This document shows positions 58,301 through 61,300 of a stretch of 64,000 bases of DNA, piece after piece. Made by a program: the position numbers. Position 1 is the first letter of the stretch. Every line of letters begins with the position of its first letter. Origin of the DNA: Trypanosoma brucei (lineage: Eukaryota); the NCBI GenBank assembly GCA_000002445.1, contig CH464491.1, positions 5,088,001 to 5,152,000 of the forward strand. The letters run 5' to 3'.

Positions 58301-61300
58301 TGCGGTAGAAGGTGTGTGTGTGTGCAGGATATATGCTTCTCCAAAAGGCTGGCGCAATTTATCATTGCGGTTGAACGGAGCCGGCCGCAGGTGAAGTCCT
58401 CACCTAAGGTATCAGTCATACAACCCACTCTCCCTTCTGCAACTTCCCCCCTTATTGCCGAGTGTGGAGCTAGCAGGAAAAGCACCGGACACAGAAATAG
58501 CCCAGACACCCTCAGAGACAGAGAGGGTATGCAGTTAACAAGCAACAAAAACAGAAAGAGGGAGAGAGAATAATAAACGAATAACAAAAATCAAAATAAA
58601 AGGATTGCTAATTGACATCTTTGGGAGAGTCCGGGGTGGGGGGCTTGTCGCCCCATCTGCTGTATTCCGTTCAACTGCGGAGCTACAACAAAAATTATAG
58701 AGAGTGTGTTAGGCTGAACAAAAAAGGGAGACTCTGCCACAGTCGCCAGACCGATAGCATCTCAGGGCTCTACGGTGATGGCTGATGGCCGCGCCAGTGG
58801 GAGGAAACTCTCACGAAGGCACGAAGAAAAAACGTAAAAAATGTTATGTAAGTATCTTTTCAGTAAGGGCGATGCTATTTCATGCTTTTTTTGTGATAGT
58901 GCTTAAAGGATAAAATTCGCTTTTATATATCCGTATTTTAGCTGCAGCAGCCCGTCCACTTGCTTTTTTGTAGGTCTGGTATCACGGGAGCTACTAATAA
59001 AGTCTTGTATACAGTTTTGTGCGACGTGTTGTCGCGATGATTCTTAGCAGTTCCAATGCTACAACCTTAACGGTCAGTTCTATTATCATGTCTTTATGCG
59101 CAAGTACCGGCTACAGGCGTTACGTTGCGTTGTTGTTACCAAGAGTTGCGCAAATATACTTTGGTTCTCCGTTACTTCTGGTGCTGATTTCCGCCTTTCT
59201 ACGGACTCATGTGCAACAGCTTCTACTTTCCTTGGAACCAAATTAGTCTTAAATGTTTCTGTTTGTGTTGCTTACCCTTTAAGCGACATATGGCTCCTAT
59301 ATAACGAGTTTGATAGAGATATAATTAATATATTTTCTTTCTTACGTCTATTGTACCATGGGTGCTTCCCAATTGTTTCTTTTGTCTTCACTATACCTGC
59401 CATTTCTGGCTTACAATAACTGTTCTTACAATAATCATGCACACTTACAACAATCTTCTATAAGTATCATTATTTTTTTATAACCATAAATTACACCAAT
59501 TTTTATAAAATAAATCAAATACATTTAATTATAATATTTAATAATACCATTTATTTTCCATACAATATCACAATTTTACTCTACACACAGAGGTAACAAC
59601 CACGTACATTTTGCGAATTTTTACATTTATACAACAAATTGTTAAAATATGTCAAGAGCTAACATTTTAAACAATCTCTTTCAAAATAAAAAAGAATTCA
59701 TAAATTTCTTAAAATTGAGCAAAAAGTTTTTACCAATAATTATTAAAATTTTTATGCTATAAGCAAAAATGCAAGCAAAATTGGGTTTCTATCACAAAAG
59801 AATTTATCCCTCTGGCGTTTGTTTTCCCTCTTGATTCGGTCCATCTACCTGTTTTAGTGTGTAATTCGGATCTTTTACGCACTTTTTATTTTCGCCTGTT
59901 TCCTCCACTTTGCAGCCACCTTTGCAGTCATCTCCTGTTCCTTTTTTTGAAAGTTTCGTCTTTTTCTATTATTTTTTGCGGTTGTGCGTTGCCTCTTTGT
60001 TGCCGCTTCGTTGCACGTGCGTGGTAACGAAAAACCTGAGGTGCCCGAAAAAAGCTTAGCTCCCGCGTAAAAAAAAGACGCTGCATCGCTAATAATTTAA
60101 AAAATTGTGAATTATAAAAGAATAAAAAAAGAAGTAAATTAAAAAACAATCCCCAAAATTAAAAACCCTAACTCTAACCCTAACCGAGTAACCCTAACCC
60201 TAACCCTAACCCTAACCCTAACCCTAACCCTAACCCTAACTAGCCTAACTAACCTAACTAACCTAACGACCCCACCCCCTCGCCATTTGCAAAAAGAAAA
60301 ACTCAAAAAAAAACGGGAAAAAGAAGGAAAAAAAATTTTACTTGCCAGAAAATATTTCTAGACAATCAGACAGTCAACTTATAAACACAGTTCAAACTTT
60401 CGGGAAACTTTGGGGTGTTAAAATATATCAGAAGTTTTCAAATAGTAAAATTTTAGCAAAGGAAAAAAGTTGAGGGGGGGGGGGGGAAGTTAAAAAAGCA
60501 AAAATGCAAGCAAAAGAGGGACCTTAATTACAGCTGAAATAAAAACCGTTCCCTCTTTGACTTTGCACTCATTCTTTTCCTTGTTCCAAGTGCATTTTGT
60601 CGTGTCACAATTAGTTTCGGACGAGGCTTTGCAATCAGCTGCGCTTGCTTTATTATCCCCGTCTTTCTTTTCTCCTGTTGCTGCTTCCGGTGTTTCCGTT
60701 CCTGGTTTGGATTTGCACTCCCCCTTTCCACCTTTTTCTTCCCATTTGCAGTTAGCTTTGGTGCAAGTCTGGTTTGTTGTGTTAGTGTTACATTCCACTT
60801 CTGATTTTGCTTTGTCTTTGGCTTGACTGTGTGACGGTTGGTTCGCTAGTTGGTGGATTTGCCTCGCTGCATAAGTGGCTTCGGCGGCTGTTCTTAAGGT
60901 CTTAAGGGCCGCTGCTGCCGTCCGTAGTTTTTCTTTTTTTTCTTTTCTTTCATTTAGCAGTCGCGCAGCTATTTCGAGCTGCTGCATCCACTTTATTCTT
61001 GTTGTTTTGGGCGTCAAGTCCATGTTATAGTAGCTTTCGTAGTCTACACAAATGTGGTCATCGTCTCCGCTGCAGTGGTTGGCGGTTGACTTCCCTAGTA
61101 TCTGATTTTTTGCTGTGTCGCCGTGGTACCTGCCTATCATTTGCTCCAGGTTCGCTATTGCCGATGCTATGTTCGCTGCCGTGGCTTCCGGCTGCGATAC
61201 CTCCGCGCAATTGTCGAGCAGTTTCTTCGCGGTTTGTTCTACGTTTGTTGCGCCGCTGGTCCAGCCTGTCGTTAGCTGAGTATGTGTGCAGCCTTTGCTT

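What the first reader, a model, noticed from the sequence alone, without database searches (positions are those of the whole stretch)
60165..60290. Perfect (TTAGGG)10 tract 200 bp downstream of an intact VSG, deep inside the array
In VSG sense the order is VSG 60490..62010, then the 16-mer 3'UTR, then (TTAGGG)10, then the degenerate TTAGGTTAGTTAGG tail. This is exactly the arrangement of a telomere-proximal VSG, yet the tract is followed by another VSG remnant (59795..59960), a 70-bp-like repeat and an ingi. The degenerate tail CTAACTAACCTAACTAACCTAAC is shared with the 45490-45560 tract, so the two junctions are homologous copies. Here the hexamer run is long and pure; there it is decayed.
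Basis: seen in the sequence. Interest (0 to 1): 0.65.

Follow-up and report, generated by a model that had tools for sequence, protein, structure and literature searches.

The report
Internal telomere-repeat relic behind array VSG
A short run of telomere repeats sits just behind an intact surface-antigen (VSG) gene inside a silent Trypanosoma brucei gene array; it belongs to a conserved flank otherwise typical of chromosome-end VSG genes, so it most likely marks an old rearrangement that moved an end-type gene copy inward.

Summary
The tract is real, but it is not a perfect (TTAGGG)10. There are 10 exact hexamers, of which 8 are contiguous (60192..60239; perfect 52-nt run 60189..60240). A shared TTAGGTTAG-type variant block lies on the VSG side.

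The tract starts 222-249 nt behind an intact b-type VSG that is 100% identical to T. b. brucei TREU927 XP_829791.1. The G-strand runs away from the gene, as at a chromosome end.

It is one of three copies in the window of a larger module. In VSG sense the module reads: GCAAATG junction, variant repeats, TTAGGG repeats, T-rich spacer, GATGCAGC box, then a short inverted CCCTAACCC motif. The other copies are at 45.4-45.6 kb and 44.8-45.0 kb.

Only 2 of 11 recognisable VSG 3' ends in the window carry the module, and 0 of 5 in two T. equiperdum loci, so it is not a standard flank. Both tract loci end distally in a truncated VSG C-terminal fragment, which looks like a breakpoint.

One copy is preceded by a sequence matching a published primer site that lies just before the telomere of expression site BES1. 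Published work treats 'TTAGGG-like repeats' as a mark of telomere-proximal VSGs and says arrays lack telomeric repeats.

Verdict: a subtelomeric interstitial telomeric sequence, carried in with a telomere-type VSG flank. Modest interest. No genome-wide survey was possible.

The parts
60490..62010 (-). Intact b-type VSG gene (506 aa), 100% identical to T. b. brucei TREU927 XP_829791.1 / EAN80679.1
   Evidence: (VSG_B 6e-78, Trypan_glycop_C 4e-12)
60415..60430 (-). Conserved VSG 3'UTR 16-mer (TGATATATTTTAACAC in VSG sense), exact
   Evidence: 8 matches at 2 or fewer mismatches in the window against 0.1 expected
60283..60292 (-). Conserved junction motif TTGCAAATGG just proximal to the repeats. 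It recurs before the 45.5-kb tract (GTGCAAGTGG) and the 44.9-kb tract (GGCAAATGCGG).
   Evidence: proximal flanks 60262-60340 vs 45555-45640, z = 4.6
60241..60267 (-). Proximal variant repeats (TTAGGTTAG type, period 9). 22 nt are identical to 45539..45560.
   Evidence: (period 9, 4.1 copies)
60189..60240 (-). Perfect telomere-repeat run: 52 nt of exact period 6, (TTAGGG)8 in VSG sense at 60192..60239
60164..60188 (-). Distal imperfect repeats: two exact hexamers plus CTCTAA and CCGAGTAA variants
60088..60163 (-). A/T-rich spacer of the module (T-rich in VSG sense)
60054..60092 (-). Conserved box (TTAGCGATGCAGCGTC...ACGCGGG in VSG sense) followed by the decayed counterpart (GAGCTAAGC) of the inverted CCCTAACCC motif
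   Evidence: GCTGCATC at 60080, 45434, 44847; z = 6.0 to a further box-like copy at about 44627..44660
59752..59960 (-). Truncated, frameshifted VSG C-terminal-domain and GPI-signal remnant directly distal to the module: the putative breakpoint partner
   Evidence: (76% to 37793..37988)
59639..59654 (-). Degenerate 16-mer of the remnant's own 3'UTR
   Evidence: 2 mismatches
45798..47378 (-). Second intact b-type VSG (526 aa) that carries the same module in its 3' flank. Only 27% identical to the first overall, but one stretch of C-terminal-domain DNA is 92% identical (60679-60792 vs 46038-46151).
45406..45562 (-). Homologous module copy 1 at the 45-kb locus: variant repeats 45539..45562, decayed hexamers re-amplified as a 12-mer at 45491..45528, box at 45434, inverted AGGGTTAGGGT at 45406..45416
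44804..45001 (-). Module copy 2, tandem to copy 1: BES1 'Tel A1'-like site 44984..45001, decayed tract 44920..44971, box at 44847, perfect inverted 12-mer AGGGTTAGGGTT at 44817..44828
43995..44304 (-). Truncated VSG C-terminal fragment distal to the 45-kb modules. 80% identical in DNA to the C-terminal domain of the adjacent intact VSG. Followed by its own 3'UTR and a 70-bp repeat at the standard distance.

Best explanation
The tract is a subtelomeric interstitial telomeric sequence. It is the TTAGGG-repeat block of a conserved telomere-associated flank that normally lies behind telomere-proximal VSG genes.

The unit, in VSG sense, is: VSG C-terminal coding region, 3'UTR with the 16-mer, GCAAATG junction, TTAGGTTAG variant repeats, TTAGGG repeats, T-rich spacer, GATGCAGC box, short inverted CCCTAACCC. 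This unit came to lie inside the array through a rearrangement whose distal breakpoint falls inside another VSG gene. That explains the truncated VSG C-terminal fragment, with its own 3'UTR and then the normal 70-bp repeat, directly behind the module at both loci.

Two routes fit, and I cannot separate them:
- (a) A chromosome end with a very short telomere acquired distal sequence, by end joining or break-induced replication.
- (b) A telomeric cassette was copied into the array and the copy was sealed by end joining within the recipient's 3' end.

**Shown:** the anatomy, the three homologous copies, the minority status of the module, and the truncated genes at the distal edge.

**Inferred:** the telomeric origin and the route. 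It is also inferred that the tract now acts mainly as a passive scar, one that could still bind the duplex TTAGGG-binding proteins TRF and RAP1 and could carry base J.

Whether these particular repeats ever formed the physical chromosome end, or were always the internal TTAGGG-like block of the flank, is open. I put it at about one in three for the former.
For: **Anatomy and orientation.** The repeat run and its G-strand polarity away from the VSG are shown. The distance from the stop codon is 222-249 nt. That lies within the 200-1590 nt between VSG and telomere in 17 expression-site clones (PMC2567434).

**Link to telomere-proximal VSGs in the literature.**
- BES1 has a GGGTTA-like block about 300 bp behind VSG2, and primer Tel A1 lies just before its telomere (PMC11229358).
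- Tel A1 matches 14 of 18 bases at 44984..45001. The match includes the 12-mer AAAAAGGGGCGC, which occurs only once in the window. It lies 12 nt from tract 2 and in the right orientation.

**A conserved module, not a bare repeat.** Three copies extend on both sides of the repeats.

**Not a standard flank.** The module occurs at 2 of 11 16-mer-bearing 3' ends in the window and 0 of 5 in T. equiperdum loci L121 and L122. Nine other VSG units or fragments in the window, including the truncated fragment behind the 45-kb modules, and most ends in the T. equiperdum loci, run from the gene end to the next 70-bp repeat in about 290-550 nt.

**Breakpoint signature.** Both tract loci end in a truncated VSG C-terminal fragment.

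**Consistent published statement.** Weak subtelomeric RAP1 ChIP peaks are described as 'residual ES sequences from recombination' (PMC10686619).
Against: - I could not retrieve any bona fide T. brucei telomere-adjacent sequence. The link to real chromosome ends therefore rests on published statements and one primer match.
- Aline & Stuart 1989 is not held, so its 'conserved organisation' could not be compared base by base.
- The three module copies are only about 72% alike. The family is old and could be propagating within arrays without any recent telomeric stage.
- The VSG at 60490 has no 70-bp repeat within about 2 kb upstream. A hexosyltransferase pseudogene lies there instead. Telomeric VSGs are reported to be flanked by 70-bp repeats.
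- The sample is 16 flanks, not a genome.
- The window does not reveal the orientation of the array relative to the chromosome end.
Confidence: 0.62

Rival explanations
1. An array-resident flank family. The module, including its TTAGGG block, is simply one of several alternative 3'-flank types that are duplicated along with VSG 3' ends within arrays. Neither of these loci was ever telomere-proximal.
For: The copies are old paralogues (72% identity). One stretch of C-terminal-domain DNA is 92% identical, which is typical of 3'-end exchange among VSGs. All three copies continue beyond the repeats with the same non-telomeric sequence. Even in BES1 the GGGTTA-like block is not the telomere itself (PMC11229358). 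Two of eleven ends within 64 kb is not rare.
Against: Published usage ties TTAGGG-like repeats to telomere-proximal VSGs (PMC3708902), and arrays are described as lacking telomeric repeats (PMC2900300). Both loci end in a truncated VSG, which a plain flank variant does not predict. The Tel A1-like site next to tract 2 points to expression-site ancestry. An 8-unit perfect run is hard to keep inside flanks that have diverged by 28% unless it was recently telomerase-maintained or has been homogenised by slippage.
Confidence: 0.2
2. Chromosome healing in place. A break behind this VSG was capped by telomerase, or telomerase inserted repeats during break repair as in mammalian short ITSs. The locus was later re-extended.
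For: The run is pure and short. A truncated gene lies nearby. Subtelomeres of T. brucei are reported to be fragile (PMC3610638).
Against: The repeats are embedded in a junction that is homologous on both sides to two other copies. This includes an identical 22-nt variant-repeat block. Independent healing at a random break would not reproduce that.
Confidence: 0.08
3. An assembly or cloning chimera that joins a telomeric clone to array sequence.
For: VSG arrays are hard to assemble. I had no read-level data.
Against: The tract is only 77-104 bp, short enough for a single Sanger read to span. A real telomere would be kilobases long. The distal sequence continues the conserved module. The same module-then-truncated-VSG layout occurs independently at 44-45.6 kb.
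Confidence: 0.04
4. A selected functional element. The internal repeats are kept because they recruit TRF and RAP1, or base J, to silence or insulate the neighbouring intact VSG, or because they give it telomere-type downstream homology for recombination.
For: Recombinant RAP1 binds (TTAGGG)10 with a Kd of 24 nM, and RAP1 gives sparse subtelomeric ChIP peaks (PMC10686619). Both tract-bearing VSGs are intact ORFs. Second-end invasion in telomere repeats has been proposed as a possibility (PMC2900300).
Against: There is no conservation of repeat purity between copies: two of three are decayed. The sample is only two genes. There are no binding or expression data for this locus. The module shows no special secondary structure (z = -0.08).
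Confidence: 0.06

Closest known systems
[quoted passage not shown]
   Same: A short, partly degenerate run of the species' own telomere repeat at a non-terminal subtelomeric site, between duplicated gene-family blocks and next to an apparent rearrangement breakpoint.
   Different: Here the tract sits in a fixed position behind a VSG gene, inside a longer conserved module with a box and an inverted motif. The orientation toward the chromosome end could not be checked.
3' flank of telomere-proximal VSG genes with 'TTAGGG-like' repeats (Aline & Stuart 1989, as cited in PMC3708902; BES1 flank in PMC11229358; VSG-telomere distance in PMC2567434)
   Same: Same order of parts, same polarity, and the same distance from the gene (222-249 nt against about 300 bp in BES1 and 200-1590 nt overall). 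A Tel A1-like site lies before one of the tracts.
   Different: No kilobase-long terminal telomere follows. The module is followed by a truncated VSG and then the rest of the array. Direct sequence comparison with a real end was limited to one 18-nt primer.
Head-to-head fusion ITS (for example human 2q13)
   Same: Two of the three copies have telomere-like sequence in both orientations (AGGGTTAGGGTT facing the CCCTAA tract).
   Different: The inverted part is only 11-12 nt and lies 76-95 nt away, across a conserved spacer and box. It is not an abutting inverted array, and at the 60-kb copy it has decayed.
Telomere-associated conserved blocks of other kinetoplastids (Leishmania LCTAS, T. cruzi 189-bp junction). 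Recalled from memory, not tested.
   Same: Short conserved boxes interspersed with telomere hexamers next to chromosome ends.

Membership tests
Interstitial telomeric sequence, subtelomeric class | Tandem copies of the species' telomere repeat, far beyond chance | tested here: met
   (CCCTAA)8 exact, and 12.5 units at 89%. 13 matches against 0.02 expected.
Interstitial telomeric sequence, subtelomeric class | Non-terminal position, with ordinary sequence on both sides | tested here: met
   60 kb of array lie on one side and 3.7 kb on the other within the window. The encoded VSG maps to a 5.26-Mb TREU927 contig.
Interstitial telomeric sequence, subtelomeric class | Lies at a boundary between duplicated subtelomeric blocks | tested here: met
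   A truncated VSG C-terminal fragment lies directly distal to the module at both loci.
Interstitial telomeric sequence, subtelomeric class | G-strand oriented toward the present chromosome end | not testable with these tools
   The position and orientation of the window in the chromosome are unknown. TREU927 DNA could not be fetched.
Telomere-proximal VSG 3' flank (Aline & Stuart type) | TTAGGG-like repeats a few hundred bases 3' of the VSG, G-strand away from the gene | tested here: met
   222-249 nt after the stop codon. Published range 200-1590 nt, and about 300 bp in BES1.
Telomere-proximal VSG 3' flank (Aline & Stuart type) | Sequence homology to the flank of a bona fide telomeric VSG | tested here: inconclusive
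   Only the Tel A1 primer could be compared: 14 of 18 bases with an exact 12-mer that is unique in the window, next to tract 2. Primers A3, S1 and S3 gave no meaningful match.
Telomere-proximal VSG 3' flank (Aline & Stuart type) | Followed by the terminal telomere array | tested here: not met
   The repeats end after 77-104 bp and unique sequence follows.
Telomere-proximal VSG 3' flank (Aline & Stuart type) | 70-bp repeats upstream of the VSG | tested here: not met
   None within about 2 kb upstream of VSG 60490. A hexosyltransferase pseudogene lies there. The 45798 VSG does have one about 2.1 kb upstream, at 49458.
Short ITS inserted by telomerase at a repaired break | Repeats interrupt otherwise unrelated unique sequence, with flanks not shared between sites | tested here: not met
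   The flanks on both sides are homologous among three copies.
Fusion ITS (head-to-head telomeres) | Abutting inverted arrays (TTAGGG)n(CCCTAA)m | tested here: not met
   Only an 11-12-nt inverted motif 76-95 nt away in two copies. It is decayed at 60 kb.
Standard VSG cassette flank (ubiquitous element) | Present behind most VSG genes | tested here: not met
   2 of 11 3' ends in the window and 0 of 5 in T. equiperdum L121 and L122. This is a small sample.

The most novel reading that the evidence does not exclude
The tract-bearing cassettes are footprints of traffic from chromosome ends back into the silent archive. An intact VSG that once sat at a telomere (expression site or minichromosome) was copied or translocated into an array together with its end-type flank, overwriting most of a resident gene. 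Such cassettes may keep telomere-type downstream homology and TRF/RAP1 binding sites. That could make them easier to reactivate, or let them seed a new telomere after breakage. This would bear on the question of how the archive is replenished with intact genes, and it would contradict the statement that arrays lack telomeric repeats.
Probability: 0.2. Interest if true: 0.65.

Novelty: new member of a known kind. Interest (0 to 1): 0.33.

Why it matters
VSG switching depends on which flanking homologies a silent gene shares with the expression site. Published descriptions give telomere repeats only to telomeric VSGs and say arrays lack them (PMC2900300).

Internal copies of the end-type flank could serve three purposes:
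- They are natural markers of past exchanges between chromosome ends and arrays.
- They are possible internal binding sites for TRF and RAP1, and possible sites of base J.

If such copies prove common and associated with intact genes, they would give a way to date and count archive-renewal events. If they prove rare, this is simply a rearrangement scar.

Tried and rejected
**Fetching T. brucei DNA around this and other VSGs.** The look-up of encoding contigs returned nothing for any TREU927 protein. Only two T. equiperdum contigs could be fetched, through a neighbouring hexosyltransferase fragment. They are paralogous, not orthologous: the VSGs are 25% identical and only the transferase DNA matches, at 78%.

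**Third protein search.** The search with the VSG C-terminal 120 aa found nothing.

**Metagenome scan.** Scanning metagenome contigs for the 16-mer returned 120 chance hits, none with telomere repeats.

**Literature.** Nine searches found no paper that describes internal TTAGGG tracts behind array VSGs. Look-ups by guessed PMC identifiers for the VSG silent-archive paper and the chromosome I and II papers returned nothing. Aline & Stuart 1989 could not be read.

**A vestigial second junction at 59985..60040.** I suspected one by eye. It is not supported (z = 1.1).

**Other telomere-like hits.** TAACCCTAAC at 37544 sits in a segment next to a 70-bp repeat that resembles the sequence beside the 43.7-kb repeat, and CCCTAACC at 28193 is an isolated chance match.

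**Structure and RNA.** The module has no significant DNA secondary structure, and there are no Rfam families in the window.

**A caveat on my own VSG map.** The tblastn map includes self-hits. Several a-type-looking ORFs have no Pfam support. I therefore used 16-mer-bearing 3' ends as the denominator.
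Full report
**Source and setting.** The window is a silent VSG array of Trypanosoma brucei.
- The ORF at 60490..62010 (-) is 100% identical to a TREU927 VSG (XP_829791.1 / EAN80679.1), which is recorded on a 5.26-Mb contig.
- All VSG-like units lie on the - strand, so 'downstream' in VSG sense means lower coordinates.
- An ingi retroelement (RT and RNase H ORF 54860..57400) lies further downstream.

**The observation.** On the + strand, 60164..60240 is a CCCTAA array. TRF reports 12.5 units at 89%.
- There are ten exact hexamers. 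Eight are contiguous at 60192..60239, and the perfect period-6 run is 60189..60240, 52 nt. The other two, at 60166 and 60178, are separated from the run by CTCTAA and CCGAGTAA. 'Perfect (TTAGGG)10' is therefore overstated.
- The signal is far beyond chance: 13 matches to a three-unit probe against 0.02 expected, all in three clusters.
- Toward the VSG lies a 27-nt block of TTAGGTTAG-type variant repeats (60241..60267).
- In VSG sense the G-strand runs 5' to 3' away from the gene, as at a chromosome end.
- The VSG is intact: 506 aa, VSG_B 6e-78, C-terminal domain 4e-12. Its 16-mer is exact at 60415..60430. The repeats start 222-249 nt after the stop codon.

**It is part of a larger module with three copies.**
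- blastn aligns 60187..60466 with 45489..45772 at 72% over 298 bp.
- A three-way alignment shows a shared order in VSG sense: a GCAAATG-type junction, variant repeats (22 nt identical between 60246..60267 and 45539..45560), TTAGGG-type repeats, a T-rich spacer, a box TTA(A/G)(T/C)GATGCAGC..., then CGCGG(A)CCCTAACCCT, a short telomere-like motif in the opposite orientation.
- The copies are at about 60054..60292, 45406..45562 and 44804..45001. The last two lie in tandem behind one VSG (45798..47378).
- The inverted motif is a perfect 12-mer 95 nt from tract 2 and an 11-mer 76 nt from tract 1. It has decayed in the 60-kb copy.
- The 45.5-kb hexamers have mutated and then re-expanded as a 12-mer, (TAAGCCTAATCC)3.2 at 96%.
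- The two VSGs are only 27% identical. One stretch of C-terminal-domain DNA is 92% identical, while the UTR-plus-tract region is 72%. These are old paralogous 3' ends, not a recent local duplication.

**It is not a standard flank.**
- Of 11 sites in the window that carry the 16-mer at 3 or fewer mismatches, only two (45720 and 60415) are followed by telomere-like repeats.
- Nine other VSG units or fragments, including the truncated fragment behind the 45-kb modules, run from the gene end to the next 70-bp repeat in about 290-550 nt.
- Two T. equiperdum contigs, reached through a neighbouring hexosyltransferase fragment, hold five more VSG 3' ends. None has a tract, and most have the standard layout.
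- This is a small sample. TREU927 DNA itself could not be fetched.

**Breakpoint signature.** Behind both tract loci the array does not resume with a 70-bp repeat. It resumes with a truncated VSG 3' end.
- At 59752..59960 there is a frameshifted C-terminal and GPI-signal fragment with its own degenerate 16-mer.
- At 43995..44304 there is a C-terminal fragment 80% identical in DNA to the end of the adjacent intact VSG. It is followed by its own UTR and a 70-bp repeat at the standard distance.
- The layout is therefore: intact VSG, end-type flank, 3' stump of another VSG, then normal array. This is what a join between an end-type cassette and a broken or overwritten array gene would leave.

**Link to real chromosome ends.**
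- Published expression-site clones have 200-1590 nt between the VSG and the telomere repeats (PMC2567434).
[quoted passage not shown] In their table the flag appears only on minichromosomal reads (PMC3708902).
- In BES1 a telomere primer misprimes about 300 bp behind VSG2 on GGGTTA-like sequence. The true telomere begins about 400 bp further on, just after primer Tel A1 (PMC11229358).
- Tel A1 matches 14 of 18 bases at 44984..45001, including a 12-mer that occurs only once in the window. The site is 12 nt from tract 2 and correctly oriented.
- The 45-kb locus thus mirrors BES1: VSG, about 240 nt, tract 1, about 500 nt, A1-like site, tract 2.
- This makes the 60-kb tract the likely counterpart of the internal TTAGGG-like block rather than necessarily the old terminal array.
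- Kim & Cross state that characterised arrays 'lack telomeric repeats' (PMC2900300). Touray et al. attribute weak subtelomeric RAP1 peaks to 'residual ES sequences from recombination', and they show that RAP1 binds (TTAGGG)10 at 24 nM (PMC10686619).

**Interpretation.** The best reading is a subtelomeric interstitial telomeric sequence carried in with a telomere-type VSG flank (confidence about 0.6).

The route is inferred, not shown. It could be capture of distal sequence by a short telomere, or copying of a telomeric cassette into the array with an end-joined distal edge.

Rivals:
- An array-resident flank family that was never telomeric (about 0.2). The old divergence of the copies and the non-terminal nature of the BES1 block favour it. 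The truncated genes and the published association with ends disfavour it.
- In-place healing or telomerase insertion (about 0.08). The shared flanks on both sides contradict it.
- A misassembly (about 0.04). The tract is short, the distal sequence continues the module, and the same layout occurs twice.
- A selected function (about 0.06). There are no data, and two of three copies are decayed.

**Other checks.** The module has no unusual DNA fold, and the window has no Rfam match.

**Novelty and score.** This is a known kind of feature, a subtelomeric ITS or telomere-associated VSG flank, in a place where the T. brucei literature I could search does not describe it and in one case says it is absent. 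Without a genome-wide count it is a modestly interesting marker of end-to-array exchange rather than a new mechanism. Interest 0.33.

Noticed in passing
window 44817-44828 and 45406-45416 (partners 44924-44935 and 45493-45503): A short telomere-like motif in the opposite orientation (AGGGTTAGGGTT) lies 76-95 nt distal to two of the three tracts, with the conserved GATGCAGC box between them. It is not an abutting head-to-head fusion. Its meaning is unexplained.
   Followed up: partly
window 45491-45528: The decayed hexamers form a higher-order 12-mer repeat, (TAAGCCTAATCC)3.2 at 96%. The tract mutated and then re-expanded by slippage, so repeat purity is a poor clock.
   Followed up: partly
window 44984-45001: A 14-of-18 match, with an exact 12-mer that is unique in the window, to primer Tel A1. 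That primer was published as lying just before the telomere repeats of expression site BES1 in Lister 427.
   Followed up: partly
window 62222-63334 (-); L121 9309-10283: A hexosyltransferase (UDP-Gal/GlcNAc-dependent glycosyltransferase) pseudogene, split into two ORFs, lies directly upstream of the VSG in place of a 70-bp repeat. The same transferase-fragment-then-VSG adjacency occurs in T. equiperdum, with an unrelated VSG.
   Followed up: partly
window 40193-40349: A perfect (ATT)52 microsatellite of 157 nt lies next to a 70-bp repeat unit (40161). It is a large expansion of the trinucleotide part of the repeat.
   Followed up: no
window 44627-44660: A further box-like element (TAGCGCTGCACGTGCC...TTTTTACGCTGG) resembles the 60-kb box (z = 6.0) but has no repeats next to it. 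It may be a third, more decayed module before the truncated VSG.
   Followed up: partly
window 8117-9595, 15407-16621, 18050-19522, 31758-32990 (-): Long ORFs in VSG positions have no Pfam VSG hit even at a permissive threshold. 12385-13077 has only a weak A-type hit (E = 0.032). The C-terminus of the 8117 ORF is 72-77% identical to that of VSG 60490. They are probably a-type VSGs that the profiles miss.
   Followed up: partly
window 54860-58845 (+): An ingi-type non-LTR retroelement (RT and RNase H ORF, then a zinc-finger-like ORF, then an A-rich end near 58820-58845) lies just downstream of the truncated VSG remnant and one degenerate 70-bp-like unit.
   Followed up: no
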